Of a DNA stretch of 64,000 nt, positions 22,520-61,579 are shown one piece after another; position 1 is the stretch's first letter; each line of letters opens with the position of its first letter. The translations under genes were made by a program, and so were the position numbers. This stretch comes from Chloroflexota bacterium (GTDB lineage Bacteria; Chloroflexota; Limnocylindria; Limnocylindrales; CSP1-4), in contig PLLE01000043.1 in the NCBI GenBank assembly GCA_003141245.1, forward strand, positions 36,542 through 100,541. Direction: 5' to 3'. The notes under the pieces were generated by a model. That model was not told the origin of the DNA. It made no database searches and was given only the letters and a program-made list of their open reading frames with translations.

Positions 22520-22685
22520 GGGCGGAATTCTAGCCACAAGCCGAGGGGTCTGGCAGCCTGCCCGATAGAGTGGCGGAACGCGGAGACAGCCCGACGCCAT
22601 TCGGGCGGCCTCCTGCTAGGATCGGCCCATTACAAGAGGGCCACGGGCAGATCCGATACCGCCCCTCGTCTGGCAGACATCGGGA

Positions 22686-23869
<1,184 letters not shown>

Positions 23870-23873
<4 letters not shown>

Positions 23874-24754
23874 GCATCCTCGTCGGGCGCGACACGCGCC
23901 TAGTGGTCCAGGGCATCACTGGTCGAGAGGGCGAGTTCCACACCCGTGCGGCGATCGCATACGGGACGAAAGTCGTTGCCGGCACGCGGCCGGGCAAGGG
24001 CGGCCAGACCGCCATCGACGGCACCGTGCCGATCTTCGACACGGTCGTCGAGGCAGTGAACCAGGCCGGCGCCAACACCTCGATCATCTACATCCCCGCC
24101 AACGGCGCTCCGGACGCGGTCCTCGAGTCGGTCGATGCCGGCATCAAGACGATCGTCTGCATCACCGAAGGCATACCTGCGCTCGACATGATCCCGGTCG
24201 TCGAGGCAGTCCGCCGCGCGGGAGCGCAGCTGATCGGGCCCAACTGCCCCGGCGTCACCTCGCCAGGGCGGGCGAAGGTGGGCATCATCCCGGCTTCCAT
24301 CCACAAACCCGGTCGCGTGGGCGTCGTCTCGCGCTCGGGCACGCTCACTTACGAAGCCGTGCAGGCGATGACCGATGCCGGGCTCGGACAGTCCAGCTGC
24401 GTGGGCATCGGCGGTGACCCGATCATAGGCACCACTTTCCTCGACGTGCTCAAGCTCTTCCGCGACGACCCGGAGACCGACGCGATCGTGATGATCGGTG
24501 AGATCGGCGGGTCTGCGGAGGAGGAGGCGGCCGCCTTCGCCGCCGAGCACCTCAAGGGCATCCCGATGGCCGCCTTCATCGCGGGCCGGACGGCGCCCCC
24601 GGGACGGCGCATGGGCCATGCCGGCGCGATCATCTCGGGCGGCACTGGAACCGCGGCGGAGAAGATCGCCGCGCTCGAGGCCGCCGGCGTTCGCGTGGCA
24701 GACTCCCCGACTCAGCTGCCCAGGCTGCTTCTCGAGGCCGGCTACCGGCCGTAA
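23870..24754 (+). CDS. sucD: Succinyl-CoA ligase alpha subunit
   Basis: [10 protein letters not shown], the active-site region [10 protein letters not shown], and a 4-nt overlap with sucC. Confidence 0.9.
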
Positions 24755-25565: not shown

Positions 25566-27269
25566 TCAGACGGTGATCAGCTCGTGGTGCTCACCCCAGA
25601 CCTCGCGCAGTCGGTCGCAGATCTCGCCGACCGTGGCATACGCCTTCACCGCCTCGATCATGGGCGGCAGCAGGTTCTCCTCGCCACGGGCGCATTCCTC
25701 GAGCCGGCGCAGGGCCGCCTTCCATGCCACGGCATCGCGCTCCGCCCTTACCTTCTGGACGCGGGCCACCTGGCGGAGCTCGCCCTCCGGATCGATGCGC
25801 TGAAGCGGCGGCGTGGACGTTTCCTCGTCGCGGAACTTGTTGACGCCGACGACCACCTTCCGGCCGCTCTCCACAGCTCGCTGAACCTGGTATGACGACT
25901 CCTGGATCTGGCGCTGCTGGTAGCCGGCCTCGATTGCGGCGAGGGTGCCTCCGAGCGCGTCGATCTCGGCCAGGTAGTCGTTGGCGGCCTTCTCGAGGTC
26001 GTTCGTCAAAGACTCGACGTAGTAGCTGCCGGCGAGCGGGTCCGGCGTCTCGGTCACTCCCGACTCGTAGGCCAGGATCTGCTGGGTGCGAAGCGCGAGA
26101 CGCGCGGCCTCCGCTGTGGGCAGCGCCAGGGCTTCGTCGCGAGAGTTGGTGTGGAGGCTCTGGGCCCCCCCCAGGACCGCGGCCAGAGCCTGGACCGTGG
26201 TCCGGACCACGTTGTTGTCGATCGACTGGGCCGTGAGCGACGAGCCGGCGGTCTGGACGTGATAACGGCACGCCATCGAACGGGTGTTCGTGGCGCCGAA
26301 ACGCTCCTTCACGATCCGAGCCCACATCCGGCGTGCGGCTCGGAACTTGGCCACTTCCTCGAAGAGCTCACTCCACGAGGCGAAGAAGAAGCTCAGCCGG
26401 TCGGCGAATTCGTCGATGTCGAGGCCACGGCTGAGGGCAGCCTCGACGTACGCGATGCCATCGGCGAGGGTGAAGGCCAACTCCTGGGCGGCGGTGGCTC
26501 CGGCCTCACGCATGTGGTAGCCGCTGATGCTGATGGTATTCCAGCGCGGCAGCTCCTTCGAGCAGAACTCGAAGATGTCAGTCACGAGCCGCATCGAGGG
26601 CCGCGGCGGGAAGATGTACGTTCCCCGGGCGATGTACTCCTTGAGGATGTCGTTCTGGGTAGTGCCGCTGACCTGGCCTCGGGCAACGCCCTGTTTCTCG
26701 GCCGCGGCGACGTAGAGGGCCAACAGGACCGCGGCCGATGCGTTTATGGTCATGGACGTGCTGACCGTGCCGAGGGGCAGCCCGTCGAGGAGAACCTCCA
26801 TGTCGGCCAGCGAGTTGACCGGCACGCCCACCCGTCCGACCTCGCCCTCGGACTGGGGGGCGTCGGAGTCGTAGCCCAGCTGGGTCGGGAGATCGAAGGC
26901 GACCGAAAGGCCGGTCTGACCCTGCTCGAGGAGATAGCGGAACCGGCGGTTGGTCTCCTCGGCCGTGGAGAATCCCGCGTACTGGCGCATGGTCCACAGG
27001 CGTCCCCGATACATGGTCGGCTGGACGCCGCGGGTGTAGGGGTACTCGCCCGGGCGGCCCAGGTCGCGATCCTGGTCGAGGCCGGCCACGTCGGCCGGGG
27101 TGTAGAGATCCTTGACCTCGACGCCGGAGGTGGTCAGGAAGCGCTCCTGGCGTTCGGGCGAGCGGGCGAGCGCCTTCGCCCGCGTGGTGGAGCGCCACCG
27201 CTCCCGGCCCGGATCGGCCGCCGATCCGTCGTTCGCTCCGGCCTTGGGTGTCCCATGGTCCTCCGACAC
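25566..27269 (-). CDS. Methylmalonyl-CoA mutase, catalytic (TIM-barrel) domain only; probable GTG start at 27269 preceded by GGAGGA
   Basis: [50 protein letters not shown] and [12 protein letters not shown] match the MutB/Sbm substrate-binding domain. The protein ends just after ...VNKFRDEE and contains no B12-binding DxHxxG domain. Confidence 0.8.
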
Positions 27270-27556
27270 TTGCCGCTTCCTCCAGCAATGCCCAGCCGCC
27301 GATCGCACACACGTACCGGTGGATGATGGCACGGACCCGGGTCGGCCCGCCAGTCTATTCCCCGAAGGACGCCTGGGTGACGGTCGTTCGTGCCGCTTGG
27401 GTGAAGGCACGGTACATCTGGGGCCTCCGTCAAGAGCCCTCCCCTAGCCCGGCTGTCTTTGCGCAAGGACGATCAACTGTGATCGCGGCGCCGATCTGGC
27501 TTGGCGCGAGGTCCGCATTGCGCATAACTCGTTCGGGGGTGGATTAGATCCGCTGC

Positions 27557-27599: not shown

Positions 27600-27710
27600 G
27601 CTCGGCCGCGGGCGACGGGCTGCGGTAGCATCTTGACACCACTCCGCCTTCCCGGCCCCTCAGAATCGAACCGTCGCGAGACCCAGCGCTCAGTCCGAGG
27701 TGACACTCAG

Positions 27711-28478
27711 GTGGCCATTGTTATCGCGATCGCAAACCAGAAGGGTGGCGTCGGGAAGACGACCACCGCCATCAATCTGGCAGGCGCGCTCGCGGAGCAT
27801 GACCTGCGCGTGTTGTGCGTGGACATGGATGCCCAGGCCAACCTGACGGTCGGGCTCGGGATCAACCTGACGACCGTCGAGAACTCGATGGCGAACGTGC
27901 TGGGTGATCCAAGGATTAGTCTGCGGGAGATCGTGATCTCGACCGAGACTCCCAACATAGACGTCGCCCCTGCCACCCTCGATCTTGCCTCGACAGAGGT
28001 CGACCTCCTGAGCACGATCGGCCGCGAGTACGCCCTCGCCGAGGCAATCGACGACTGGGCTCGGGGCCACTACGACTACATCCTCATCGACTGCCCACCG
28101 ACGCTGGGCCTGCTCACGATCAACGGCCTGGTGGCGGCCAACGGGGTGATCATCCCCGTTCAAACCCAGTACTACGCCCTCAAGGGCCTGGCGGCCCTGG
28201 TCAAGGTCATCGCCACGATCCGCTCCAAGCTGAACAAGGACCTGCGGGTCATGGGTCTGCTTCCTACCTTCCACGACCCCCGCACCGTACTGGGCCGTGA
28301 GATGCTCGAAGAGATGCGGGAGCACACGGAGAACCACGTCTTCCAGACGATCATCCGTAACGCCGTCAAGCTCGGCGAGGCCCCTCTCACCGGCCGCCCC
28401 ATCACCGAGTACGCCAGCGGCTCGGATGCCGCCAACAACTTCCGAGAGCTCGCCAAGGAGGTAATCGCACTTGGCTAG
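27711..28478 (+). CDS. parA: Chromosome partitioning ATPase ParA/Soj (probable GTG start at 27711)
   Basis: Deviant Walker A IAIANQKGGVGKTTTAINLA, ParA signature LLIDCPPTLGLLT, and an 8-nt overlap with parB. Confidence 0.9.
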   Translation: MAIVIAIANQKGGVGKTTTAINLAGALAEHDLRVLCVDMDAQANLTVGLGINLTTVENSMANVLGDPRISLREIVISTETPNIDVAPATLDLASTEVDLLSTIGREYALAEAIDDWARGHYDYILIDCPPTLGLLTINGLVAANGVIIPVQTQYYALKGLAALVKVIATIRSKLNKDLRVMGLLPTFHDPRTVLGREMLEEMREHTENHVFQTIIRNAVKLGEAPLTGRPITEYASGSDAANNFRELAKEVIALG

Positions 28479-29490
28479 GCCAGATTTCCGGGCCGCCGCC
28501 TCTGCTCGCCTGAACGAGGAGCGAGGCCAGGAGCTCTCACACAATGTCCTCAGCCTCTTGCACGCCGATGAGACGACCGTCATCCGGCCGTCCGCGGTCC
28601 GGAACATCCCCGTCGACCGGGTAGATCCGAACCCAAACCAGCCGCGCCTGGCGATGGACCAAACGAACCTGGACGAGCTCACCTCGTCCGTCAAGCAACA
28701 CGGCGTCCTCCAGCCGATCCTGGTCCGTCCGTTGCCTGCCGGTCGCTACCAGATAGTCGCGGGCGAGCGTCGCTGGCGCGCCGCCACAGCCGCGGGCCTC
28801 AAAGAGATTCCCGCCCTGATCGAGGAGATCGACGACGACACGGCCCTCGAGATCGCAATCATCGAGAACCTCCAGCGCGAGGACCTCTCCCCGATCGACG
28901 AGGCTCAGATCTACGACAAGATGATTCGCCAGCACGGCTACAGCATCCGCAAGCTGGCCCAGAAACTCGGCAAGGACAAGGGCTATCTGGAGAACCGCCT
29001 CCGCCTGGCCGATGCCCCGCCGGAGGTACGCGAGCTGGTGTCTGTGCGCAAAGACACCCTCTCCCACGCCTACGAACTGCTCAAGGTCGCGGACCCTCGG
29101 AAGCGTAAGAAGCTGGCCGACATGGTCGCCCGCGGCGAGCTCTCGTTAGTCAAGCTGCGCGAACAGATTGGCGAGACGCCCCGGGCCAAGCGCGCCGGCA
29201 AGACCGACTCCACCGAGGCCAGCCCCGCGGGCGCCGTCGAGGACACGACCGACGTCGAAGCCAACCGGTTGGGGAGCGGCCCCAAACGTTTGCTCACCGA
29301 CGACTCGCTGATTGACGTCCGGGCTCAGCTCGCCGACGCCATTAGCGAGCTGATCTCCGTCATCCAGTCGGATGTGATGAAGTCGATCGACGACACCGAC
29401 CGCCAGAACCTGGCCAAGTTCCTGATGATCTCCCGCGTCCGGCTCGAGAACGCCACCACGCTCGTCCGGCGTGGCAGCTCCGATCACTGA
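28471..29490 (+). CDS. parB: Chromosome partitioning protein ParB/Spo0J
   Basis: ParB box motifs (LQPILVRP, IVAGERRWRAA, IIENLQREDLSPIDEA) and a C-terminal HTH and dimerisation region. Confidence 0.9.
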   Translation: MARPDFRAAASARLNEERGQELSHNVLSLLHADETTVIRPSAVRNIPVDRVDPNPNQPRLAMDQTNLDELTSSVKQHGVLQPILVRPLPAGRYQIVAGERRWRAATAAGLKEIPALIEEIDDDTALEIAIIENLQREDLSPIDEAQIYDKMIRQHGYSIRKLAQKLGKDKGYLENRLRLADAPPEVRELVSVRKDTLSHAYELLKVADPRKRKKLADMVARGELSLVKLREQIGETPRAKRAGKTDSTEASPAGAVEDTTDVEANRLGSGPKRLLTDDSLIDVRAQLADAISELISVIQSDVMKSIDDTDRQNLAKFLMISRVRLENATTLVRRGSSDH

Positions 29491-39208: not shown

Positions 39209-39643
39209 CTACTCGATGGCTATCCGAACCTCGTCGCCATCGTCGGAGACCTCCAGAATCGGCCCGGTCATCCCGCTCCGGATCGCCTCCGCGATGCGGG
39301 ACCGGTGGTCCGGCGAAAGACCCGGCACCTGGTCGATCGCGAACCCCGCCGCAGCCAGAGGGATCTGAAGGTTGATTACCTGGCGGCCCTTCTCGGCCAC
39401 ATAGACTCTGATCTTACGACCGTCGAGCAGCTCTTGGGCACCGCCGGCTCGACGGCCTCCTTCACGGCCGGTCTCCTTTGCGCTTTGGCGCGCGCCGGCG
39501 GCGCCGGAACCGGTTCCGACGCCGTTGGGGCGAGTCTCGCTGGGGGCTCTCTCCTCGAGTGCGGCCACGATCGGCGCCGCTTCCTCGGCCGTGATGCGGC
39601 CCTCCGAAACGAGACGGAGCAATACCTCCAGCGCACCGGACAT
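39209..39643 (-). CDS. Small hypothetical protein with a SHOCT-like N-terminal motif
   Basis: LVSEGRITAEEAAPIVAALEE resembles SHOCT/DUF1707 segments; it is the last gene of the DUF2089-DUF4097 string. Confidence 0.4.
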   Translation of the reverse strand: MSGALEVLLRLVSEGRITAEEAAPIVAALEERAPSETRPNGVGTGSGAAGARQSAKETGREGGRRAGGAQELLDGRKIRVYVAEKGRQVINLQIPLAAAGFAIDQVPGLSPDHRSRIAEAIRSGMTGPILEVSDDGDEVRIAIE

Positions 39644-39648
39644 CGCCG

Positions 39649-40821
39649 CTACCTCCCCGTCCGGTCGAGCCGCGACGCGGCCTCGTCGACCCCGATCTCG
39701 CCTCGCTCGAGGGCCTGGAGGATCGCCAGCGCATCATCGTCGGCCTGGTCGTCGCGGGCATGGTCGGCGGCTTCCTCGACGGTCTCGTCCGGGTTCCAGC
39801 TCTCCGCCGACCCATCGGCCGGCGCTTCGGTGGTGGGGGTCGCGGCTGCCACGGCGGCGGTGGCGCCTGGTTGTGGCCGAGCGGTATCGCCGCTGGCGAC
39901 GGCCGCATGGGTCTCGGCCGGCGCGGGCTCGCTTCGCCCGGGGCCAGCGACAGGTTGCGTGGCGGCCGCCCTGCCGGAGGTGCCGACGACCGTGTCGGAT
40001 GGGCGAGGCGCCAGCAGACGCAACGAGCCCGAGGTCGAATTGACTCGCAGGTTCGCCCGCCCGTCGCCGACGATCGCTCGCCAGAACCCACGCGTGCCCT
40101 CGATGTGGCGCTCGATTTCGGAGTGGATCGAGCCCGAGACCGTCTTGAGCTCGGCGCTGACTCCGGATAGAGGCGTGAAGTCCACGCTGCCGGAGATCGA
40201 CTCGGCGCGGTGGTCGCCCGCCGGGTCCAGGGCTCCGACGACGATCATGCTGCCGCTCGTCGTCGAGAGGCTCAGGTCGTGGAAGAGGCCGGCGCGGGCC
40301 TTGATGCCGCCGGAGATGGTGCTGGCCCGGAGGCGCAGCGCCGATCCGCCGTCTAGGGTGATGCCGCCCGAGATGGTTCCGGCCTCCACGTGTCCGCCCA
40401 GATTCCACATGCGGATCTCGCCCGAGACCGTCCTGTACTTCTGGTCGCCGACGAGATTCTCGGCCTCGATGGAGCCGCTCAACGTCTCGAACCGGAGCTT
40501 CGTGCCCCAGGGGGCCTCGACGAGAACGTCGGCGCTGACCCGGGCGCCGCCGAAGAGCCAGGCCAGGCCCGTGGAGAGCCGCCGCTCCGGCGTCTCGATC
40601 TCGAGCGAACCGTCGCCGCGCTCGATGGCCACGCGGCCGCTGTCGAGGGCTCGTTCGGCGGAGGCGTGGTCGGTCGCCCTAATGCGATAAGCCACCGTCA
40701 CGCGCGCGTCGTCACCGTCGATCCCTCGGACGCGAACCAGGCCGGTGACGGTCTTGACCGAAAGCCGTCCGGCGGAACCCAATCGATGCGTGAGCGACTC
40801 CCGGCGCTCCAGCGTGCCCAT
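39649..40821 (-). CDS. DUF4097-family (LiaG/YvlB-like, putative beta-helical adhesin-like) protein with a Pro/Ala-rich spacer and a C-terminal SHOCT-like tail
   Basis: Repeated TVSGSI / TISGGI / SISGSV beta-strand repeats characteristic of DUF4097; C-terminal ALAILQALERGEIGVDEAASRL. Confidence 0.6.
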   Translation of the reverse strand: MGTLERRESLTHRLGSAGRLSVKTVTGLVRVRGIDGDDARVTVAYRIRATDHASAERALDSGRVAIERGDGSLEIETPERRLSTGLAWLFGGARVSADVLVEAPWGTKLRFETLSGSIEAENLVGDQKYRTVSGEIRMWNLGGHVEAGTISGGITLDGGSALRLRASTISGGIKARAGLFHDLSLSTTSGSMIVVGALDPAGDHRAESISGSVDFTPLSGVSAELKTVSGSIHSEIERHIEGTRGFWRAIVGDGRANLRVNSTSGSLRLLAPRPSDTVVGTSGRAAATQPVAGPGRSEPAPAETHAAVASGDTARPQPGATAAVAAATPTTEAPADGSAESWNPDETVEEAADHARDDQADDDALAILQALERGEIGVDEAASRLDRTGR

Positions 40822-40824
40822 CTC

Positions 40825-41298
40825 CTACTCCTTCCGAGAGCGGATCAGGGCCGCGGCCTCGTCCGCCGTGATCTCATGTCGAGCCAGCCGCTCCAGAACC
40901 TCGCGGCGCAGCCCACTCATCTCACCCCGCCCCGAACCGTCGTCAGAGCCGTCGTCGGCGAAGGTGCCTTCCGCCAGGCCGAGCGCCCGAACGAGGGCGT
41001 CGATCCGAGCGCGGACCGTCGGGTAGGAGAGCTTGAGTTCCCGCTCCAGCTCCTTCAGGTTGCCCCGAGCGCGCAGGAAGCTCTCCAGGAGAGCCAGCTG
41101 CTCGCGGCTCAGGCGCCCAAAGCGGCCGACGCTGAAGTCGCCCTCGATGGCGGTGCCGCAGCTTCGACATTGCAGCCGGGTCACGAACAGCTCGCTCGAG
41201 CAGACCGGACAGGTCGAGATCACGTCGCGTGTCATTGGTACCGTCACTCCGGAGATCACGACCGGCCAGTGGCTGGTCTGGACCTCGTGAGTTGTCAC
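40825..41298 (-). CDS. DUF2089-family protein (zinc ribbon plus HTH; YvlA-like). Probable GTG start.
   Basis: CPVCSSEL...CRSCG zinc-ribbon, then LSREQLALLESFLRARGNLKELERELKLSYPTVRARI, an HTH. Confidence 0.6.
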   Translation of the reverse strand: MTTHEVQTSHWPVVISGVTVPMTRDVISTCPVCSSELFVTRLQCRSCGTAIEGDFSVGRFGRLSREQLALLESFLRARGNLKELERELKLSYPTVRARIDALVRALGLAEGTFADDGSDDGSGRGEMSGLRREVLERLARHEITADEAAALIRSRKE

Positions 41299-41358
41299 TA
41301 TTGCATAAGGCCTTTCTATATGTCAAGGACACCTTACCATTTTGATAAACTGGCCTCC

Positions 41359-41373
41359 TAGATACCTAGATAC
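41359..41373. promoter_or_regulatory. Direct repeat TAGATAC-C-TAGATAC in the AT-rich divergent promoter region between the DUF2089 and DUF3090 genes
   Basis: tagatacctagatac lies within the 220-bp intergenic region. A TTGACA hexamer sits on the minus strand (plus coordinates 41321-41326), upstream of the DUF2089 GTG start. Confidence 0.4.
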
Positions 41374-41517
41374 GGCCGGCCGGAGACGGGCATGACGGCC
41401 CGAGTCGCCGGATTCGGCCGGTGAGCGCGCGGTCCCGGACTTCAGAGCCGTCTGGTGTAGGGGGTATAGATTCGCCTCGACGGCGCGCGATGCGCCTTCG
41501 ATCTCCTGGAGGCGCAA

Positions 41518-42098
41518 TGGCTCGTCGGGTCTACCTAATCGAGAATCCCGATCGTTTCGTCGCCGGCGCGGTCGGTCAGCCGGGCAGCCGCATCTTCTAT
41601 CTGCAGGCCCGCGAGGGCTCTCGCGTCGTCACCGTCGTCCTGGAAAAGACCCAGGTCGCGCTGCTCGCGGAACGCCTGAGCGAGCTGCTGGCGGAGGTGC
41701 GCAGCCGCGGCGCGGACGTGCCCGACGATCTATCGACCGACGAGGTGGACCGGGCTCCCCTCGAAGAGCCCCTCGTCGAGGCCTTCCGGGTCGGGACGAT
41801 GGCGATCGTATGGGACGGAGACGACGAGAGCGTCGTCGTGGAGGCGCGCGAGGTCAAGGTAGACGAGGGCGACGAGGGCGACGAAGAGACGGACGAAGAG
41901 ACGGACGAAGCCGCGGACGACGAGGACGACGAAGACGGCGACCTCATGCGCGTCCACATGGAGCCGCGCAAGGCGCTCGCATTCGCCGGCCGAGCCCTGG
42001 AAGTCGTCGCGGCGGGCCGGCCGCCGTGCCCTTTCTGCGGCCAGCCACTCAACGCCGAGGGCCACATCTGCACCCGCCGAAACGGCTACATGCACTGA
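41518..42098 (+). CDS. DUF3090-family protein (three-Cys-motif partner of SCO1664-family proteins) with an internal poly-acidic tandem repeat
   Basis: C-terminus PPCPFCGQPLNAEGHICTRRNGYMH is the family's characteristic ending. The middle is DEGDEGDEETDEETDEAADDEDDEDGD, encoded by tandem 9/12-nt repeats. The start is MARRVYLIENPDRF, preceded by GGAGG. Confidence 0.65.
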
Positions 42099-42105
42099 GA
42101 TCGAG

Positions 42106-42939
42106 ATGGCCGAATCGAGAGCAGACGAGAGCCGCAGTCAGGCCGAGTCGCGTCTCACTCGCGAGGAGATGGAAGCAGCCGCCCTCGACGGACGTCAGGT
42201 CGGCGGCGAGATCGACACGGAGACCGCGCTGCGAGTCCTCAACGACGGCGAGCTGACCGTCGTGGGCAGGCTGCTGTCGGCCTCGAACGCGACCTTCTTC
42301 TGTCTCGTGGAGGAGCATCGGCCCGGCGGCGAGCCAGGGCCGATCGCCAGTTGCGTCTACAAACCGATCCGCGGCGAGCGGCCCCTGATCGACTTCCCCG
42401 ACGGGACCCTGGCCTGCCGCGAGGCGGCCGCTTACGCCGTCTCGGAGGCGAGCGGCTGGAACCTGATCCCACCCACAGTGCTGCGCGACGGACCCTTCGG
42501 CCCGGGCATGGTCCAACTCTGGATGGAGGCCGACGAGACGGTCGACGTGGCCGCGCTCATCGGCGACGACCTCCCCGCACTGCGCCGCATCGCCCTCTTC
42601 GACGCCGTCCTCAACAACGCCGACCGCAAGGGCGGGCACCTGCTGCCACTCCCCGACGGGCGGATCCTGGGCATCGACAACGGGCTGTGCTTCGCCGTCG
42701 AGCCGAAGCTGAGGACGGTCCTGTGGCTGTGGCGCGGTCAGCCGCTGGACGAAGACGAAGTTACGGCGCTGTCGCGTTTGCGCGAGCGACTGGGTGGGAC
42801 GCTGGGCGAGCAGCTGCGCGCGCTGCTGGTGCCGACCGAAATACTCGCGACGGTGCGACGGATCGACGGCCTGCTGACCAACCGCCGCTTCCCCCTCCCC
42901 GACCGCGATCGGCCGGCCATTCCATGGCCGCCGTTCTAG
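42106..42939 (+). CDS. SCO1664-family protein (actinobacterial PI3/4-kinase-like fold, function unknown)
   Basis: LTVVGRLLSASNATFFCLVEEH...VYKPIRGERPL...NNADRKGGHLL...LGIDNGLCF. The last two blocks resemble kinase catalytic-loop and DxG regions. It is tightly linked (7 nt) to the DUF3090 gene. Confidence 0.65.
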   Translation: MAESRADESRSQAESRLTREEMEAAALDGRQVGGEIDTETALRVLNDGELTVVGRLLSASNATFFCLVEEHRPGGEPGPIASCVYKPIRGERPLIDFPDGTLACREAAAYAVSEASGWNLIPPTVLRDGPFGPGMVQLWMEADETVDVAALIGDDLPALRRIALFDAVLNNADRKGGHLLPLPDGRILGIDNGLCFAVEPKLRTVLWLWRGQPLDEDEVTALSRLRERLGGTLGEQLRALLVPTEILATVRRIDGLLTNRRFPLPDRDRPAIPWPPF

Positions 42940-43036
42940 GTCAGGCCCTGGCCGCCGGTTCGCGGCTCCTCTCGTGCGGCGATCGGCGCACGAGGCGCCT
43001 GCTCCTCCGGCACAATCGCGCCAGGAGGGAGATGAC

Positions 43037-44125
43037 TTGCTGAGCTATCTCGCAATCCGGACCCGGATCATCGCCAGCGTCGCCATAGCGGCCACGTGCG
43101 GCGCCCTGGTGTTGCGCGCCGCGGACGCGGCGCCGGCGACCGTCTTCATCGTGACCTGTGTGGCCCTGGCCGGCCTGGCCGCGATGGTCGGCGAGGTGAC
43201 GGACCAGCTCAGCGGGCGACTCGGGCCCGGCGCGACCGGCGTCCTCCAGTCGGCGCTCGGCAACCTGCCGGAGTTCTTCATCGGCATCTTCGCCCTGCGG
43301 GCGGGCCTGGTCGACGTCGTCCGATCGGCTCTCGTCGGCTCGATCCTGGCGAACACGCTTCTGGTTCTCGGCCTCGCCTTCATCGCCGGAGGACTTCGCC
43401 ACGGAGCCCAGAAGTTCGGCGGCGATCAGACCCGCACCATGTCGACGCTGCTGCTGCTGGCGGTCGCGGCCCTGGCCATCCCGACGATCGCGGCGGCCCC
43501 CGGCGGCCCGGATCGCGGTCACGAGACCGAGATTTCGGTCGTCGTCTCGGTCGTCCTGCTGATCGTCTTCGCGGCCAGCATCCCGTTCTCGATCGGCAAG
43601 GGCGGCCCGGCGGTCGGAGCCGAAGAAGGCCTCGTCCTGACCGACACGCTGTGGCCCCTCGGCGTAGCGCTCGGGGTCCTGGCGGCGGCGGGAGTCGGGG
43701 CCGCCTTCGCCTCCGATTGGTTCGTCGAGGCTCTCCAGCCCACGATGCAGACTTTCGGGATGTCGCAGTCGTTCGCCGGCCTGGTGGTCGTCGCGATCGC
43801 CGGCAATGCCGTCGAGAACTTCACCGGGATAAGGGCCATGCTCGCCGACAAGGGCGACCTGGCGATCAGCCTGATCCTCAACTCGAGCCTGCAGGTGGCG
43901 CTTGCCCTCACGCCGATCCTGGTGATCGCCAGCCTGCTGCTGGGCGGGGCCACGCTCACGCTGGTCGTCTCGCCGCTCCTGGTCGTCGCGCTCGCGCTGG
44001 CGACCCTGCTGGCGGCCTTTGTCGTGATCGACGGCGAGTCGACCTGGCTCGAAGGTCTGGCGCTGGTGGGGCTGTACGTGATCGTCGCCGCCAGCGTCTG
44101 GTGGGGCGCGCCGATCGCGGGTTGA
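43037..44125 (+). CDS. Ca2+/H+ (cation/proton) antiporter, CaCA family. The ORF track starts at 42974; a TTG at 43037 preceded by GGAGGG is the more likely start.
   Basis: Two alpha-repeat regions (GNLPEFFIGIFALRAG and GNAVENFTGIRAMLADKGDLAISLILNSSLQVAL) flank a hydrophilic loop; 10-11 TM helices. Confidence 0.8.
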   Translation: MLSYLAIRTRIIASVAIAATCGALVLRAADAAPATVFIVTCVALAGLAAMVGEVTDQLSGRLGPGATGVLQSALGNLPEFFIGIFALRAGLVDVVRSALVGSILANTLLVLGLAFIAGGLRHGAQKFGGDQTRTMSTLLLLAVAALAIPTIAAAPGGPDRGHETEISVVVSVVLLIVFAASIPFSIGKGGPAVGAEEGLVLTDTLWPLGVALGVLAAAGVGAAFASDWFVEALQPTMQTFGMSQSFAGLVVVAIAGNAVENFTGIRAMLADKGDLAISLILNSSLQVALALTPILVIASLLLGGATLTLVVSPLLVVALALATLLAAFVVIDGESTWLEGLALVGLYVIVAASVWWGAPIAG

Positions 44126-44144: not shown

Positions 44145-45245
44145 TTGCCTCCCTTGGATCCCGCCGCGCAGCCGTCACGCGATGCCCGACCGAGCCCGAG
44201 TCAGGGCCGGCGCGTCTTCCGCAGGATCGTCGCCGGCCCGAGGACCTACGAGACGCTGTGGCAAGTCTTCGCCGTCAGCCTCTTCCTGACGATCGGCGTC
44301 CAGGTCGCGGTCGGCGTGGCCACGAGGCTCATGGTCGACTCGTGGCCCGCCTACGACACCAATGCCTACTGGCTGGCGTCGCGTCACATCCTTCAGGGAC
44401 AGCCTCTGTACGAGCAGTCGACGATCTGGGCCGGCGGCGTCTACAAGTACCCACCGATCTTCGCCCAACTCACCTTCCTGATCGCGTTGGTACCCGAGGT
44501 CTTCGTCGACTGGGCCTGGCGCATCCTCGGCATAATGTGCTTGCGCTACCTCTGCGGGTCCTGGCGGCTGACCCTGATCGCGACCCTGCAGTGGCCCGTC
44601 TGGGCCGAGCTCGACTTCGGCAACGTCACGCTGCAGCTCGGGGCAGTGCTGCTCTTCGCGCTGCGCGATCGTCGCGGCGCATATCTGCTGCCTTGGTTCG
44701 CGGCGCTAAAGTTCGGGCCCGGCCTGCTGATCCCCTACCTGTGGCTGACCAGGCCCGACTACCGCCGACCGCTGGCTATCGGCTGCGGGGTCTTCGCGGC
44801 CGCTTGCGCCGTCTCGGCCCTCGCCGCGCCCGGGCTGTGGGTCGACTATCTGGGCACGTTCGGCTGGGAGGCCGCCTCGGAGATGCGGGCCCTGCACGTG
44901 CTTGCGATCGTCCCGGACCACGGCGGATTGGACTTCGCGATTCGCTGTGCGATCGCGGCGGCGGCCGTTCTCGTGGCGATTCGCCGGCGGGCGGACTGGC
45001 TGGCATTCCTGGCCGCCGCGGCGACGATGCCGATCTTCTCCCTCACCCGGCTGGCGGTGCTCGTGGGCCTGTGGCCCTTGTGGCTGCGCGACCGTGTGGA
45101 CGAGTGGCGGCGCAGCGGGGGTCGAGTGCGTGGCGCGGCCTCGGATGCGCTGGAGCATCTGGGACTCGTGTCAGGGCCCGTGGCTCCTGCGCCGACTGCG
45201 GCTCCGGCGCCGACCGCGGGCCCGACGCAGTCCGGTCGGAGCTAG
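44145..45245 (+). CDS. GT87 / DUF2029 family integral-membrane glycosyltransferase (PimE/AftA-like mannosyl- or arabinosyltransferase family)
   Basis: Polytopic membrane protein with the conserved VYKYPP loop after the first helices, as in GT87. Confidence 0.6.
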   Translation: MPPLDPAAQPSRDARPSPSQGRRVFRRIVAGPRTYETLWQVFAVSLFLTIGVQVAVGVATRLMVDSWPAYDTNAYWLASRHILQGQPLYEQSTIWAGGVYKYPPIFAQLTFLIALVPEVFVDWAWRILGIMCLRYLCGSWRLTLIATLQWPVWAELDFGNVTLQLGAVLLFALRDRRGAYLLPWFAALKFGPGLLIPYLWLTRPDYRRPLAIGCGVFAAACAVSALAAPGLWVDYLGTFGWEAASEMRALHVLAIVPDHGGLDFAIRCAIAAAAVLVAIRRRADWLAFLAAAATMPIFSLTRLAVLVGLWPLWLRDRVDEWRRSGGRVRGAASDALEHLGLVSGPVAPAPTAAPAPTAGPTQSGRS

Positions 45246-59020: not shown

Positions 59021-59461
59021 ATGACCGCCCTCGATTCGATCGCACCTGCCTCTCCCACCCTATCGGCTGCCGCATGCCGATTCCTCGAGGCGCCGCGCTT
59101 CGCGGTCGTCGCGACCCTCAACCCGGACGGCAGCCCGCTCCAGGCCGTGATCTGGTACCGCCTCGAGGACGACACGATCGTCTTCAACAGCCGCCTGGGT
59201 CGCCACTGGCCAACCAACATCCAGCGCGACCGGCATGTCTCGATCACCGTGGTCGACGGCTATGACTACATCGAGATGCGCGGCGAGGTCGAGATCGACG
59301 AGGATCCGCAGCTCGGTCAGGCCGTCATCGCGGGCTTGACCCGACGTTACGAGTCGAACGGCGAGGCCGCCGAGGCTCAGATCGCGGGCTTTGCCAGGGA
59401 GCGACGCGTGACCTTCAAGCTGCGTCCGAGCAGAATCTTCGAGCGTCTGTCGAGCAACTGA
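59021..59461 (+). CDS. PPOX-class F420-dependent enzyme family protein (pyridoxamine 5'-phosphate oxidase-like split barrel)
   Basis: FAVVATLNPDGSPLQAVIWYRLEDDTIVFNS... is a PNPOx-like fold of the kind common to actinobacterial F420 users. It lies directly upstream of fgd. Confidence 0.65.
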   Translation: MTALDSIAPASPTLSAAACRFLEAPRFAVVATLNPDGSPLQAVIWYRLEDDTIVFNSRLGRHWPTNIQRDRHVSITVVDGYDYIEMRGEVEIDEDPQLGQAVIAGLTRRYESNGEAAEAQIAGFARERRVTFKLRPSRIFERLSSN

Positions 59462-59499
59462 CGGAGAAGCCCGGCAAGCGGTCCACCGGAGGAGACGAG

Positions 59500-60489
59500 A
59501 TGGCCCAGGCGAAGATCGGCTACGCGGCAATGCTCGAGCAGTTCGGGCCGGCCGAAATACTGGATCTCTGCGCCCGGGCCGAGTCTGCCGGCTTTTCGGG
59601 CGTCATGGCCGCCGATCACTTCCAGCCGTGGGTCCCGCGCCAGGGCCAGGCCTCGTTCGTGTGGGAGGTCCTGGCGGTCGCCGGGGCACGCACCCGCGGC
59701 GACCTGGGACCCGGCGTGGCTTGCCCGTCGTTCCGGATGCATCCCGCCATCGTCGCCCAGGCCGCGGCGACGCTCGAGGTCATGTATCCGGGGCGAACGT
59801 GGCTGGGTCTTGGCTCCGGTGAGGCGCTCAACGAGCACGTCGTGGCCGGCTACTGGCCGGAGGTGCCGGAGCGCATCAACCGCATGTTCGAGGCGATCGA
59901 GATCATCGCCAAGCTCTTCAGCGGCAAAGAGGTCAAGCACGACGGCCGCTTCTTCAAGATGGAGACCTGCCGCCTTTGGACACTGCCGGAGAAGGCGCCC
60001 CCGATCTACATCGCCACGGCCGGCCCGGTGACCGCCAAGCGAACGGGTAAGTTCGCCGACGGGATCATCACCGTCGGCGCGCCGGAGGAGAAGATCGACG
60101 GCATCTTCGCAAAGTTCGCCGAAGGAGCGCGCGAGGGCGGCAAGGATCCGGCGACGATGCCGAAGATCCTGCAGCTCCACCTGTCCTGGGCCGAAACGGA
60201 TGCCGAGGCGGTCGCGAACGCGATCTCCGAATGGCCCAACGGCGGCATGCGCTTCCCCAAGCAGGACATCAGGTCGCCCAAGGACTTCGAGCAGGTGGCG
60301 GCACTGGTCCGGCCCGAGGACTTCACCGGTCGGATGCTCATGTCGGCCGACCCCGAGGTCCACCGCCGCGAGATCCAGAAGTTCCTCGACCTCGGCTTCG
60401 ACCAGATCTACCTGCACAACGTCGGCCGAAACCAGGCGGCCTGGCTCGACCTCTTCGGCCGCGAGGTGCTGCCGAAGCTGACGGCCTGA
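59500..60489 (+). CDS. fgd: F420-dependent glucose-6-phosphate dehydrogenase (LLM-class luciferase-like oxidoreductase)
   Basis: Near-collinear match to mycobacterial Fgd1: KIGY.A..EQFGP.E...L...AE..GF......DHFQPW, YPGR..LG.G.GEALNE, PIYIA..GP..AK..G...DG.I, and a C-terminal F.ELF.R..LP.L. Confidence 0.8.
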   Translation: MAQAKIGYAAMLEQFGPAEILDLCARAESAGFSGVMAADHFQPWVPRQGQASFVWEVLAVAGARTRGDLGPGVACPSFRMHPAIVAQAAATLEVMYPGRTWLGLGSGEALNEHVVAGYWPEVPERINRMFEAIEIIAKLFSGKEVKHDGRFFKMETCRLWTLPEKAPPIYIATAGPVTAKRTGKFADGIITVGAPEEKIDGIFAKFAEGAREGGKDPATMPKILQLHLSWAETDAEAVANAISEWPNGGMRFPKQDIRSPKDFEQVAALVRPEDFTGRMLMSADPEVHRREIQKFLDLGFDQIYLHNVGRNQAAWLDLFGREVLPKLTA

Positions 60490-60628
60490 GAGGCGGCCCT
60501 CGAGCGCGACCCGGAGCCGGTCATCGTGCGCCCAGACGAGCACCGCGTGAGAGACGCCTCGAAGCGACACCATCGTCGCCCGGCGCTACGCTTTCGGGAA
60601 CAGGTTTGGCCGCCAACTGGGAGGAGCG

Positions 60629-61579
60629 ATGCGGGTCGTTTGTCTGGCCGGTGGCGTCGGAGGCGCGAAGCTGGCCGACGGGCTCCAGCGCGCGCTCGAA
60701 CCCGGTGAGCTGACCGTCGTCGTCAACACCGGCGACGACTTTGAGCGGCACTCCCTGCTGGTCTGCCCCGACCAGGACACCGTGCTCTACACCCTGGCGG
60801 GGATCGCCGAGCCGGCTCAGGGCTGGGGAATCGCCGGCGAGACGTGGCAGGTCATGAGCCAGCTCGCTCGCCTCGGCGAAGAGACCTGGTTCCGCCTGGG
60901 CGACAAGGACGTCGCCACACACCTCTTCCGCACTGAGCGACTCCGCGGCGGCAAACGCCTGAGCGCCGTGGCGCTGGAGTTGTGCGCCGCGCTGGACGTG
61001 CCGTCGCGGATCCTGCCGATGGCCGACGAGCCCGTTCGAACGCGGGTCCGAACCGACGACGGCTGGCTCGACTTCCAGGACTACTTCGTCCGCCTGCGCC
61101 AGGCCCCCGAGGTACGCGAGGTCCGTTTCGAGGGCGCCGATCTCTCCTCGATCACCCCGGAGGTTGAGGAGGCGCTGGCGGGAGCCGAAGCCATCGTCGT
61201 GGCGCCATCGAATCCGATCGTCTCGATCGGTCCGATCCTGGCCGTTCCCGGGATCGACGAGGCGATAGCCGCCGCCAGGGCGCGCGGCGTTCGGAGCGTC
61301 GGCGTCTCCGGCATCGTCGGCGGGAAGGCGCTGCGCGGCCCGGCCGATCGAATGATGGCCAGCCTTGGCGACGAGCCGACGGCGCTCGGGGTCGCCCGCC
61401 GATATGCATCGATGGGGCTGCTGGACGTCTTCGTCCTCGACCGGCTCGACGAATCGCTCGCGAGAGACGTCATCGCGCTGGGGCTGGAGGTCGTCGTGAC
61501 CGAGACGGTGATGACCGACGTCGGCGCGCGAGTCCAGCTCGCGCGGGACGTCCTGGCCGCGACCCTGCCTCCCGCATGA
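60629..61579 (+). CDS. cofD: 2-phospho-L-lactate (or EPPG) transferase CofD/FbiA
   Basis: MRVVCLAGGVGGAKLADGL, NTGDDFERHSL, PSNPIVSIGPIL; GGGAGG-like SD upstream. Confidence 0.85.
   Translation: MRVVCLAGGVGGAKLADGLQRALEPGELTVVVNTGDDFERHSLLVCPDQDTVLYTLAGIAEPAQGWGIAGETWQVMSQLARLGEETWFRLGDKDVATHLFRTERLRGGKRLSAVALELCAALDVPSRILPMADEPVRTRVRTDDGWLDFQDYFVRLRQAPEVREVRFEGADLSSITPEVEEALAGAEAIVVAPSNPIVSIGPILAVPGIDEAIAAARARGVRSVGVSGIVGGKALRGPADRMMASLGDEPTALGVARRYASMGLLDVFVLDRLDESLARDVIALGLEVVVTETVMTDVGARVQLARDVLAATLPPA

What the first reader, a model, noticed from the sequence alone, without database searches (positions are those of the whole stretch)
41518..42939. DUF3090 and SCO1664-family conserved partner pair of unknown function, with an expandable poly-acidic tract
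The 193-aa protein ends with the diagnostic CPFCGQPL..GHICTRRNGY motif. Its neighbour, 7 nt downstream, has PI3/4-kinase-like catalytic-loop and DxG-like blocks. This pairing is reported as near-universal in Actinobacteria and remains uncharacterised. Here the small protein contains a DEGDEGDEETDEETDE... insert encoded by perfect 9- and 12-nt tandem repeats, a probable site of length variation.
Basis: partly seen in the sequence, partly recalled or inferred. Interest (0 to 1): 0.55.

Follow-up and report, generated by a model that had tools for sequence, protein, structure and literature searches.

The report
Conserved zinc-knuckle protein and kinase pair
Two tightly linked genes encode a small zinc-binding protein with a stretchy acidic loop and a lipid-kinase-like enzyme; the pair is a catalogued but never-studied "actinobacterial signature", and here it sits in a Chloroflexota genome, away from the mycothiol gene it is usually linked to.

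Summary
Gene 1 (41517-42098, 193 aa; the start is one base earlier than reported) scores 218.7 bits on TIGR03847 (cut-off 117) and 205 bits on Pfam DUF3090. Gene 2 (42106-42939, 277 aa, 7 nt downstream) scores 300.6 bits on TIGR03843/SCO1664 (cut-off 172).

New points:
- **Organism.** It is a Chloroflexota (class Limnocylindria) MAG, not an actinobacterium.
- **Pairing.** The pair is adjacent in 74 of 79 informative genome loci and 70 of 72 metagenome loci. The usual third partner (TIGR03848 histidine phosphatase) and mshC are absent from this window.
- **Acidic tract.** It is not a private insert. It is a family-wide disordered loop, 23-43 aa in close relatives and about 12 to over 100 aa family-wide, on a fixed 156-aa core. 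In-frame tandem duplications are about 10 times enriched there, and one DEG copy is unique to this sequence.
- **DUF3090 model.** It shows two four-strand-plus-helix repeats (weakly Pur-alpha-like) and a CCHC zinc knuckle.
- **Kinase.** All catalytic residues are intact. It resembles type II PI4-kinase only below family thresholds.

The function is untested in the papers I could search. My best inference is a kinase that acts on or through its obligate DUF3090 partner. This is an ordinary new member of known, uncharacterised families, of moderate interest.

The parts
41462..41474 (+). Conserved box GGGTATAGATTCG about 45 nt upstream of the start codon. It is a candidate -10-type promoter element for the pair (inferred).
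   Evidence: At least 80% conserved in 37 aligned Limnocylindria intergenic regions. It was not found by the sigma-70 consensus scan.
41508..41512 (+). Shine-Dalgarno-like GGAGG, 4 nt before the ATG.
   Evidence: CTGGAG is conserved in the alignment of 37 intergenic regions. The sequence is shown.
41517..42098 (+). DUF3090 / TIGR03847 gene, 193 aa plus stop.
   Evidence: TIGR03847 218.7 bits (cut-off 117.25) and PF11290 205.2 bits. An identical protein is called on ENA contig k141_176796.
41529..41705 (+). Repeat 1 (residues 5-63): four beta strands plus a helix. Carries invariant R13 F14 G20 G23 R25 F27 L29 Q30 A31 E43 K44 Q46 V47 and the S/T39 position.
   Evidence: AF2 model, pLDDT 76-93 in this stretch. 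Invariant columns. S/T at position 39 in 171 of 180 sequences.
41781..42017 (+). Repeat 2 (residues 89-167): strands 89-100, 105-112 and 143-148, then helix 150-167, interrupted by the acidic loop.
   Evidence: AF2 model. Invariant F90 R91 G93 W99 E109 V146 F156.
41853..41942 (+). Disordered acidic loop (residues 113-142, VKVDEGDEGDEETDEETDEAADDEDDEDGD; 20 D/E, 1 K).
   Evidence: pLDDT below 50 for residues 117-137. Charge counts. Length is variable across the family while the core is fixed.
41862..41884 (+). Perfect 9-nt tandem GACGAGGGC x2 (plus 5 nt), encoding DEG-DEG. The second copy is private to this sequence.
   Evidence: All 119 other listed homologues have a single DEG-type unit here.
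41880..41910 (+). Perfect 12-nt tandem GACGAAGAGACG x2 (plus 7 nt), encoding DEET-DEET. It is shared with the closest relatives.
   Evidence: DEETDEET is also in P0002, P0003 and P0005.
41915..41932 (+).
   Evidence: checked against the sequence.
42027..42071 (+). CCHC zinc-knuckle motif: C171-P-F-C174 ... G182-H183-x-C185. This is the most conserved segment of the protein.
   Evidence: Invariant in 36 of 36 diverse sequences from both phyla and in alignment A1. Metal binding is inferred, not shown.
42106..42939 (+). SCO1664 / TIGR03843 gene, 277 aa plus stop.
   Evidence: TIGR03843 300.6 bits (cut-off 172.4).
42355..42366 (+). V84-Y-K86-P: candidate ATP-binding lysine, followed by the invariant G90-E-R-P-L.
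   Evidence: Invariant across Chloroflexota and Actinomycetota. Its role is inferred by analogy with VFKP of PI4K2A. This stretch was not inside the hhalign local alignment.
42613..42639 (+). Catalytic-loop equivalent N170-N-A-D173-R-K-G-G-H178.
   Evidence: Invariant. It aligns to RNTDRGNDN of PI4K type II-alpha by hhalign. It lies inside the Pfam PI3_PI4_kinase match, residues 161-201.
42673..42684 (+). I-D191-N-G: equivalent of the metal-binding DFG/IDNG motif.
   Evidence: D191 and G193 are invariant. It aligns to IDNG of PI4K type II-alpha.

Best explanation
**Shown.**
- These are two co-oriented chromosomal genes with almost no gap between them, in a Chloroflexota (class Limnocylindria) bacterium.
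- They are full members of two catalogued but unstudied families: DUF3090/TIGR03847 and SCO1664/TIGR03843.
- The two genes travel together in both phyla that carry them.
- Gene 1 encodes a small acidic cytosolic protein. Its model shows two four-strand-plus-helix repeats, a disordered acidic loop inside the second repeat, and an invariant C-terminal CCHC motif.
- Gene 2 encodes a compact protein whose only detectable relatives are PI3/PI4-type kinases, closest in motifs to type II PI4-kinase. The expected lysine (K86), catalytic aspartate (D173) and metal-binding aspartate (D191) are invariant.

**Inferred.**
- The two products work as one unit. The kinase uses ATP to phosphorylate either DUF3090 itself or a ligand that DUF3090 holds. 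DUF3090 would be the zinc-stabilised target or adaptor.
- In most other lineages a TIGR03848 histidine phosphatase encoded just upstream would reverse the step. That gene is not in this window.
- The acidic loop is constrained only in charge. It grows and shrinks by in-frame replication slippage, and probably acts as a flexible negatively charged spacer or mask rather than a specific site.
For: **Family membership.** Both NCBIfam models and Pfam DUF3090 score well above their cut-offs.

**Pairing.**
- SCO1664 lies directly downstream on the same strand in 74 of 79 informative genome loci.
- DUF3090 lies directly upstream in 70 of 72 informative metagenome loci found with the kinase as query.
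- Where the kinase alignment starts at residue 1, the gaps are 5-20 nt.
- No terminator-like site lies between the genes.

**Asymmetry.** DUF3090 occurs without the kinase in 5 loci that form one clade. The kinase almost never occurs without DUF3090. This fits a kinase that depends on DUF3090.

**Kinase assignment.**
- PF00454 is the only recurrent Pfam hit: 20 of 24 diverse members, best E 5e-6.
- hhalign against PI4K2A (PDB 4hnd_A residues 77-383, sequence verified) gives score 38-41 and E 4e-5 to 1e-4. The catalytic loop, IDNG and W.W motifs align.
- The reversed PI4K2A sequence scores 13.7, and 20 shuffles score at most 21.7.
- Catalytic residues are invariant across phyla.

**DUF3090 architecture.** AF2 model with pLDDT 75 and pTM 0.67. 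CCHC is invariant.

**Phosphatase partner.** TIGR03848 is confirmed upstream in an actinobacterial locus (298 bits) and a Chloroflexota locus (239 bits; cut-off 203.85). It is upstream in 33 of 45 metagenome loci.

**Loop plasticity.**
Against: - No result here shows a physical complex or phosphotransfer.
- The AF2 model of the kinase is poor (pLDDT 52.8). Its Foldseek hits to PI3K/PI4K, Fam20 and HipA/HipT are all non-significant (E >= 0.08).
- The Pfam match is below the gathering score. A profile search of PDB sequences finds no kinase.
- His178 replaces the Asn that binds Mg in PI3K/PI4K.
- DUF3090 has no invariant Ser/Thr/Tyr. Only position 39 is S/T, in 95% of sequences, and it is also S in the kinase-less clade.
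- The apparent DUF3090-kinase fusions in the representative library contain only fragments of each family. They look like frameshift or gene-call artefacts, so there is no Rosetta-stone support.
- The nearest relatives of the phosphatase partner act on small molecules. Rv2135c was characterised only as an acid phosphatase (PMC3866925). This favours the small-molecule rival.
Confidence: 0.45

Rival explanations
1. This is a small-molecule pathway. SCO1664 phosphorylates an inositol-, sugar- or lipid-type metabolite, for example in inositol or mycothiol metabolism. The TIGR03848 enzyme acts as phosphatase or mutase on the product. DUF3090 is an accessory zinc protein, not the target.
For: - The closest motif-level relative is a lipid kinase, type II PI4K.
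- After its own family, the best matches of TIGR03848 are alpha-ribazole phosphatase, phosphoserine phosphatase and acid phosphatases.
- Rv2135c has acid phosphatase activity (PMC3866925).
- In Actinomycetota loci mshC lies directly downstream. Chandra and Chater noted invariable linkage of SCO1664 to mshC (PMC4255298).
- DUF3090 has no invariant hydroxyl residue.
Against: - In Chloroflexota the pair is conserved with no mshC nearby. There is none in this 64-kb window, and mshC is downstream in only 12 of 47 metagenome loci.
- This reading does not explain why the kinase is essentially never found without DUF3090, or why the two genes are so tightly juxtaposed.
- Neither protein has a membrane segment that would suit a lipid substrate. 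This comes from inspecting the sequences and was not formally tested.
Confidence: 0.3
2. This is a HipA-type toxin-antitoxin module. The kinase is a growth-arresting toxin, and the small acidic upstream protein is its antitoxin.
For: - It is a two-gene operon with a small acidic protein first.
- HipT and HipA structures appear among the non-significant Foldseek hits to the low-confidence kinase model (8ezs_B, 2wiu_A, 3hzi_A).
- One of 24 members has a weak HipA_2 match (E 0.068).
Against: - The pair sits in the same conserved chromosomal setting in about 40 related genomes.
- The two phyla separate cleanly in a distance tree, with no sign of mobility.
- Neighbouring genes are housekeeping.
- There is no PADLOC match.
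- PI3_PI4_kinase, not HipA, is the recurrent Pfam hit.
- Published lists call the family near-universal among actinomycetes (PMC4255298).
Confidence: 0.03
3. The tandem repeats form a programmed contingency locus that switches the protein's function within a population.
For: - Three perfect tandem duplications lie within 90 nt, unlikely from composition alone.
- Length differences among 85-90% identical relatives fall only in this tract.
Against: - Each repeat has only two copies. All units are multiples of three, so the reading frame is never switched.
- The variation seen is between species-level genomes, not within a population.
- The loop is disordered and tolerates lengths from about 12 to over 100 residues. 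This fits neutral or charge-only constraint.
Confidence: 0.04

Closest known systems
TIGR03847 / Pfam PF11290 (DUF3090). From my memory, untested here, the actinobacterial examples are SCO1665 and Rv2134c.
   Same: Full-length match well above cut-offs. It has the same CxxC...HxC C-terminus, the same acidic loop and the same position directly upstream of an SCO1664-family gene.
   Different: The host is Chloroflexota, not Actinobacteria. There is no TIGR03848 gene upstream and no mshC downstream. The loop carries lineage-specific tandem duplications.
TIGR03843 (SCO1664 family protein). From my memory, untested here, the M. tuberculosis example is Rv2133c.
   Same: Full-length match at 300.6 bits. 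All motifs that are invariant in actinobacterial members are present.
   Different: It has about 35 extra N-terminal residues compared with the Frankiales and Acidothermaceae proteins. It lacks the 25-30-residue insertion seen in some Actinomycetota between the QLW and LRR motifs. It is not linked to mshC.
Type II phosphatidylinositol 4-kinase (PI4K2A, PDB 4HND) and Pfam PF00454.
   Same: Same order of motifs: GxxQL(W/F)xE, (N/R)N(A/T)DRxxx(H/N), IDNGL(C/A)F, W.W. PF00454 is the only recurrent Pfam match.
   Different: The match is below the Pfam gathering score. His replaces the Mg-binding Asn. The protein is about 240-280 aa, with no palmitoylation loop or membrane-binding elements. No lipid substrate is known. 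Membership of the family is not established.
PUR repeat / PC4-like fold (Drosophila Pur-alpha repeats I-II, PDB 3K44 and 5FGP).
   Same: Two consecutive beta-beta-beta-beta-alpha units in one chain. These are the top two PDB Foldseek hits (probability 0.77-0.80).
   Different: The hits are weak (E 0.017-0.037, TM 0.33-0.44, rmsd 12-14 A). There is no sequence similarity. The internal repeat is not detectable by profile comparison (E 0.26). The core is acidic (pI 5.3). DUF3090 has an extra zinc knuckle and acidic loop. Nucleic-acid binding is untested.
Kinase / small-substrate / phosphatase switches such as SpoIIAB-SpoIIAA-SpoIIE. This is an analogy of logic only, from general knowledge.
   Same: The gene trio found in most lineages is phosphatase, small protein, kinase. 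The small protein has a single conserved S/T position.
   Different: There is no homology to any component of those systems. Phosphorylation of DUF3090 is not shown. The phosphatase is missing from this locus.

Membership tests
TIGR03847 / DUF3090 (PF11290) | Score above the curated cut-off over the full model length. | tested here: met
   TIGR03847: 218.7 bits against 117.25, model positions 2-177 of 177. PF11290: 205.2 bits against 27.
TIGR03847 / DUF3090 (PF11290) | C-terminal CxxC...HxC putative metal-binding motif. | tested here: met
   C171, C174, H183 and C185 are present and invariant in 36 of 36 diverse members. The motif is described in PMC9425974.
TIGR03847 / DUF3090 (PF11290) | Restricted to Actinobacteria (as the family has been described). 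| tested here: not met
   The nearest relatives and about 65 of 80 genome loci are Chloroflexota/Limnocylindria MAGs. This concerns the family's description, not the protein's membership.
TIGR03843 / SCO1664 family | Score above the curated cut-off. | tested here: met
   300.6 bits against 172.4.
TIGR03843 / SCO1664 family | Encoded directly next to a DUF3090 gene. | tested here: met
   7-nt gap here. Adjacent in 74 of 79 genome loci and 70 of 72 metagenome loci.
TIGR03843 / SCO1664 family | Close linkage to mshC, reported as invariable in actinomycetes (PMC4255298). | tested here: not met
   tblastn finds no mshC in the 64-kb window. mshC (TIGR03447, 634 bits) was seen only in Actinomycetota loci. 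It is downstream in 12 of 47 metagenome loci.
Three-gene system TIGR03848-TIGR03847-TIGR03843 | MSMEG_4193-family histidine phosphatase encoded beside the pair. | tested here: not met
   No homologue in the window. A divergent DUF2089 operon takes the upstream position. The trio does occur in other Chloroflexota, e.g. L050 at 239 bits, and in 33 of 45 metagenome loci.
PI3/PI4-kinase catalytic domain (PF00454) | Score at or above the Pfam gathering threshold. | tested here: not met
   18.5 bits against 27.1, residues 161-201 only. 20 of 24 relatives give the same sub-threshold or weak hit, best E 5e-6.
PI3/PI4-kinase catalytic domain (PF00454) | Catalytic loop DRxxxN and metal-binding D(F/N)G. 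| tested here: inconclusive
   D173-R-K-G-G-H178 has His in place of Asn. I-D191-N-G matches type II PI4K. Both are invariant. hhalign scores 38 against at most 21.7 for shuffles.
PI3/PI4-kinase catalytic domain (PF00454) | Bilobal kinase fold. | tested here: inconclusive
   The AF2 model has pLDDT 52.8. The top Foldseek hits are PI3K/PI4K, Fam20 and HipA/HipT, but all have E >= 0.08.
PUR / PC4-like nucleic-acid-binding fold | Two beta-beta-beta-beta-alpha repeats packing into one domain. | tested here: inconclusive
   The topology is seen in the AF2 model. Pur-alpha gives the best PDB hits, but they are weak. The sequence-level repeat is not significant.
PUR / PC4-like nucleic-acid-binding fold | Binds single-stranded nucleic acid. 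| not testable with these tools
   Needs EMSA or similar. The core pI of 5.3 does not favour it, although repeat 1 (pI 10.2) and the knuckle (pI 8.7) are basic.
HipA-type toxin-antitoxin kinase | HipA family domain match and mobile or variable genomic context. | tested here: not met
   HipA_2 matched in 1 of 24 members at E 0.068. No PADLOC hit. Synteny is conserved and the tree is phylum-congruent.

The most novel reading that the evidence does not exclude
DUF3090 is a bacterial PUR/PC4-like binder of single-stranded nucleic acid or another polyanion. Its basic repeat-1 and zinc-knuckle surface is masked within the same molecule by its own acidic loop. The type-II-PI4K-like kinase, with the TIGR03848 phosphatase where present, toggles that masking. 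This would be a previously unrecognised kinase-controlled switch shared by Actinomycetota (including M. tuberculosis) and Limnocylindria.
Probability: 0.08. Interest if true: 0.75.

Novelty: new member of a known kind. Interest (0 to 1): 0.35.

Why it matters
The pair belongs to the "actinomycete signature" genes. These include genes of M. tuberculosis and Streptomyces, and none of the papers I could search reports a function for them.

- The pair is a core, syntenic feature of a Chloroflexota class. There it persists without mshC nearby, and in this clade without the histidine phosphatase. This weakens the mycothiol guilt-by-association idea. It points to the DUF3090-kinase couple as the indivisible functional unit.
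- The kinase almost never occurs without DUF3090, while DUF3090 can occur alone.
- The invariant kinase residues, the single conserved S/T39 and the CCHC knuckle give concrete mutants to test.
- The acidic loop is a clean natural example of a charge-constrained, length-unconstrained disordered segment that evolves by slippage.

None of this is surprising enough on its own to rank high.

Tried and rejected
- **PDB sequence searches.** Both proteins and three family profiles gave no meaningful hits.
- **Kinase structure.** AF2 with 26 sequences of 65-92% identity gave pLDDT 52.8. The fold search on it is only suggestive.
- **Internal duplication of DUF3090.** hhalign of the N-terminal half against the C-terminal half gave E 0.26. 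The halves aligned in register but not significantly.
- **Rosetta-stone fusions.** Long DUF3090 proteins in the 50%-identity representative library contain only fragments of TIGR03843 or TIGR03848. I rejected them as frameshift or gene-call artefacts.
- **Thr94 as a kinase-dependent residue.** It seemed to be Ala only in kinase-less proteins, but this did not hold across all 80 loci. Only positions 60, 64 and 184 separate the two groups, and the kinase-less group is a single clade.
- **Viral structure library.** It returned only uncharacterised giant-virus and phage proteins.
- **Rfam and terminator scans** of 40500-43500 found nothing relevant.
- **PADLOC** gave no defence-system match.
- **Literature.** Searches for DUF3090, SCO1664, Rv2133c, Rv2134c, TIGR numbers, Limnocylindria plus mycothiol, and bacterial type II PI4K found no functional study. 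ML1306 turned out to be ParJ/SCO1662, a different gene.
Full report
**Observation.** Two + strand ORFs occupy the reported interval.
- The first starts at ATG 41517. It ends at TGA 42096-42098 and gives 193 aa ending CPFCGQPLNAEGHICTRRNGYMH.
- The open frame extends up to GTG 41421. Three things support 41517 as the true start: every homologue begins at the MARRVY position, the ENA gene call uses it, and a conserved GGAGG lies 4 nt upstream.
- The second gene starts at ATG 42106 after a 7-nt gap and ends at 42939 (277 aa).
- The acidic tract (residues 113-142) is encoded by three perfect tandem duplications. These are GACGAGGGC x2 (41862-41879), GACGAAGAGACG x2 plus 7 nt (41880-41910) and GGACGACGA x2 (41915-41932).
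- I shuffled the 30 loop codons to test chance. A 9-nt and a 12-nt perfect repeat occurred together in 0.11% of shuffles, and a unit of 12 nt or more in 1.4%. The repeats therefore reflect real duplication events.

**Family identity.**
- Gene 1 scores 218.7 bits on TIGR03847 (cut-off 117.25) and 205.2 bits on Pfam DUF3090.
- Gene 2 scores 300.6 bits on TIGR03843, the SCO1664 family (cut-off 172.4).
- The only Pfam match for gene 2 is PI3_PI4_kinase. It scores 18.5 bits over residues 161-201, below the gathering score of 27.1.

**Organism and setting.**
- The closest homologues of both proteins (up to 90-92% identity) come from metagenomes. The named ones are 'Candidatus Limnocylindrales bacterium'.
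- Of 80 species-representative genome loci retrieved with a DUF3090 profile, about 65 are Chloroflexota/Limnocylindria MAGs. About a dozen are Actinomycetota, including Acidothermaceae, Frankiales, Streptosporangiales, Luedemannella and Nocardioidaceae.
- Limnocylindrales belongs to the phylum Chloroflexota.
- The window is ordinary chromosome. It carries TCA-cycle genes, ParA/ParB, methylmalonyl-CoA mutase, pyruvate dehydrogenase E1 and F420 biosynthesis genes.
- A crude neighbour-joining tree of DUF3090 separates Actinomycetota from several deep Chloroflexota clades. This fits long residence in both phyla rather than recent transfer. The sampling of Actinomycetota was narrow, because the search patterns required the exact PCPFCGQP and CxRRNG[YF]MH peptides.

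**Pairing and neighbours.**
- SCO1664 lies immediately downstream on the same strand in 74 of 80 genome loci. One of the six exceptions is truncated. The other five (L066, L071, L076, L079, L080) are genuine TIGR03847 proteins that form their own clade.
- From the other direction, 80 metagenome loci were found with a kinase profile. DUF3090 is directly upstream in 70 of the 72 informative ones.
- Where the kinase alignment begins at residue 1, the gap is 5-20 nt. No terminator-like site separates the genes.
- In Actinomycetota and some distant Limnocylindria, the gene upstream is a TIGR03848 (MSMEG_4193-family) histidine phosphatase. It scores 298 bits in L054 and 239 bits in the Chloroflexota locus L050, against a cut-off of 203.85. 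It is upstream in 33 of 45 metagenome loci with room to tell.
- mshC (TIGR03447, 634 bits) follows the kinase only in Actinomycetota loci and in 12 of 47 metagenome loci.
- In the window's clade, about 40 genomes share a different arrangement. A divergent DUF2089/DUF4097/SHOCT operon lies upstream, and a Ca2+/H+ exchanger lies downstream.
- tblastn finds no TIGR03848 or mshC homologue anywhere in the 64 kb.
- The DUF3090-kinase bond is therefore much tighter than either gene's link to the phosphatase or to mycothiol synthesis.

**The acidic tract.** It is not an insert peculiar to this protein.
- In 119 near-full-length homologues the rest of the protein has a fixed length (156 residues in 115 of them). 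The segment between the conserved VEAR and RV strands ranges from 23 to 43 residues. It is 33 here. It is 43-69% Asp/Glu and almost free of Lys/Arg.
- Actinobacterial members have the same acidic loop.
- In the 50%-identity representative library, which holds 2313 clusters at E <= 1e-3, the loop runs from about 12 to over 100 residues.
- Among the listed relatives the second DEG unit is unique to the window. DEET-DEET is shared with the closest relatives.
- Across 73 orthologous genes, perfect in-frame tandem duplications occur at 6.5 per kb in loop DNA against 0.66 per kb elsewhere. Different units are duplicated in different lineages.
- AF2 gives pLDDT below 50 for residues 117-137.
- My reading is a disordered loop constrained in charge only, repeatedly resized by replication slippage. 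I found no evidence for programmed switching. Each repeat has only two copies, and all units are multiples of three.

**DUF3090 architecture.**
- The AF2 model (pLDDT 75, pTM 0.67) has two parts. Strands 5-9, 13-19, 26-33 and 36-42 are followed by helix 44-63. Strands 89-100, 105-112 and 143-148 are followed by helix 150-167, with the loop between the last two strands. After that comes the poorly modelled C-terminal knuckle.
- The best PDB fold matches are Drosophila Pur-alpha repeats I-II (5fgp, 3k44; probability 0.77-0.80, E 0.017-0.037, TM 0.33-0.44). This is a resemblance in topology, not a demonstrated relationship.
- The two halves are not significantly similar in sequence.
- Residues invariant across both phyla are R13 F14 G20 G23 R25 F27 L29 Q30 A31 E43 K44 Q46 V47 P85 F90 R91 G93 W99 E109 V146 F156, and the block G167-R-P-P-C-P-F-C-G-Q-P-L...G-H-x-C...N-G.
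- No Ser, Thr or Tyr is invariant. Position 39 is Ser or Thr in 171 of 180 sequences.
- The protein is acidic overall (pI 4.3; 5.3 without the loop). Repeat 1 (pI 10.2) and the knuckle (pI 8.7) are basic.

**The kinase-like protein.**
- Residues invariant across both phyla include K86 (in VYKP), G90-E-R-P-L, R105-E106, Q137, W139, D166, N170-N-x-D173-R-K-x-G-H178, D191-x-G193, K201-L-R-T and a C-terminal P-W-P.
- PF00454 is the only recurrent Pfam hit (20 of 24 diverse members, best E 5e-6). HipA_2 appears once at E 0.068.
- I recalled the human PI4K2A sequence and verified it as PDB 4hnd_A residues 77-383.
- hhalign of the family profiles against it gives E 4e-5 and 1e-4. It aligns GxxQLWxE, NNADRKGGH with RNTDRGNDN, IDNGLCF with IDNGLAF, and the W.W motif.
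- As controls, the reversed sequence scores 13.7 and twenty shuffles score at most 21.7, against 38.0 for the real one.
- The AF2 model was poor (pLDDT 52.8). Its top Foldseek hits are Vps34, PI4KIII-beta, other PI3Ks, Fam20 and HipT/HipA, none significant.
- I conclude that the protein very probably has a PI3/PI4-type kinase fold with a complete active site, and that its motifs are nearest to type II PI4K. It does not meet the Pfam family threshold, and His replaces the Mg-binding Asn.

**How it most likely works.**
- Shown: family membership, near-obligate adjacency, catalytic-residue conservation, the CCHC motif and the plasticity of the loop.
- Inferred: the two products act as one unit, with the kinase phosphorylating DUF3090 or a ligand it presents. 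Where present, the TIGR03848 phosphatase would reverse the step.
- The main support is the asymmetry. DUF3090 can exist without the kinase, but the kinase practically never exists without DUF3090. DUF3090 also lacks any enzyme-like motif, and the genes sit almost end to end.
- I put this at about 0.45.
- The chief rival, at about 0.3, is a small-molecule pathway acting on inositol, sugar or mycothiol precursors. It is favoured by the lipid-kinase resemblance, the small-molecule relatives of the phosphatase and the mshC linkage in Actinomycetota. It is weakened by the Chloroflexota loci that keep the pair without mshC.
- A HipA-like toxin-antitoxin reading and a contingency-locus reading are both unlikely.

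**Literature.** The library held no functional study of either family.
- DUF3090 appears only in lists (PMC13118837; PMC9425974 notes the CxxC..HxC motif).
- SCO1664 is mentioned once for its linkage to mshC.
- Rv2134c is a Tn-seq hit for rifampicin sensitivity in BCG (PMC11329110).
- The trio's phosphatase Rv2135c is an acid phosphatase (PMC3866925).
- The mapping of Rv2133c to SCO1664 and of Rv2134c to DUF3090 is from my memory and was not tested here.

**Verdict.** The locus is a new, non-actinobacterial member of two known but uncharacterised families. It is useful mainly because its context separates the pair from mycothiol genes and defines testable residues. Interest is moderate to low (0.35).

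Noticed in passing
window 39209-41298 (- strand): A three-gene operon lies head-to-head with DUF3090. It encodes a DUF2089 zinc-ribbon/HTH protein, a DUF4097 'toastrack' protein and a SHOCT-like protein. The same arrangement occurs in about 38 Limnocylindria loci. A strong TTGACA-18-AATAGT promoter-like site lies at 41326-41297 on the minus strand and is conserved in the aligned intergenic regions.
   Followed up: partly
window 41462-41474 and 41508-41512: A conserved GGGTATAGATTCG box and a GGAGG lie upstream of the DUF3090 start in 37 aligned intergenic regions. They are a likely promoter element and ribosome-binding site for the pair.
   Followed up: partly
loci L066, L071, L076, L079, L080: A separate clade of genuine TIGR03847 proteins has no SCO1664 gene within 6 kb. 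Their C-terminus is altered (GHFC...NGQxN). They are flanked by an XRE-HTH/TPR regulator and a helicase/nuclease-like protein of about 1030 aa.
   Followed up: partly
window 44145-45245 (+ strand): A 366-aa hydrophobic, probably multi-pass membrane protein has no Pfam or NCBIfam match. It is conserved downstream of the Ca2+/H+ exchanger in 28 related loci.
   Followed up: no
window 59021-63071 (+ strand): F420 cofactor genes (CofD, CofC-like, F420-0:gamma-glutamyl ligase) are preceded by a PNPOx-like protein and a luciferase-like monooxygenase.
   Followed up: no
window 27633-29490 (+ strand): A ParA/ParB partition pair sits next to TCA-cycle genes (succinate dehydrogenase flavoprotein 18916-20664, isocitrate dehydrogenase 21497-22600, succinyl-CoA ligase 22686-24754) and methylmalonyl-CoA mutase (25566-27410).
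   Followed up: no
window 42637-42639 (His178 of the SCO1664 protein): An invariant His occupies the position of the Mg-binding Asn in the PI3K/PI4K catalytic loop (DRKGGH versus DRxxxN), in every member from both phyla.
   Followed up: partly
representative-library proteins P0276, P0300, P0265: These DUF3090 proteins have the repeat-2 loop expanded to roughly 80-110 residues. The expansion includes non-acidic Pro/Ala-rich stretches, and the flanking core is unchanged.
   Followed up: no
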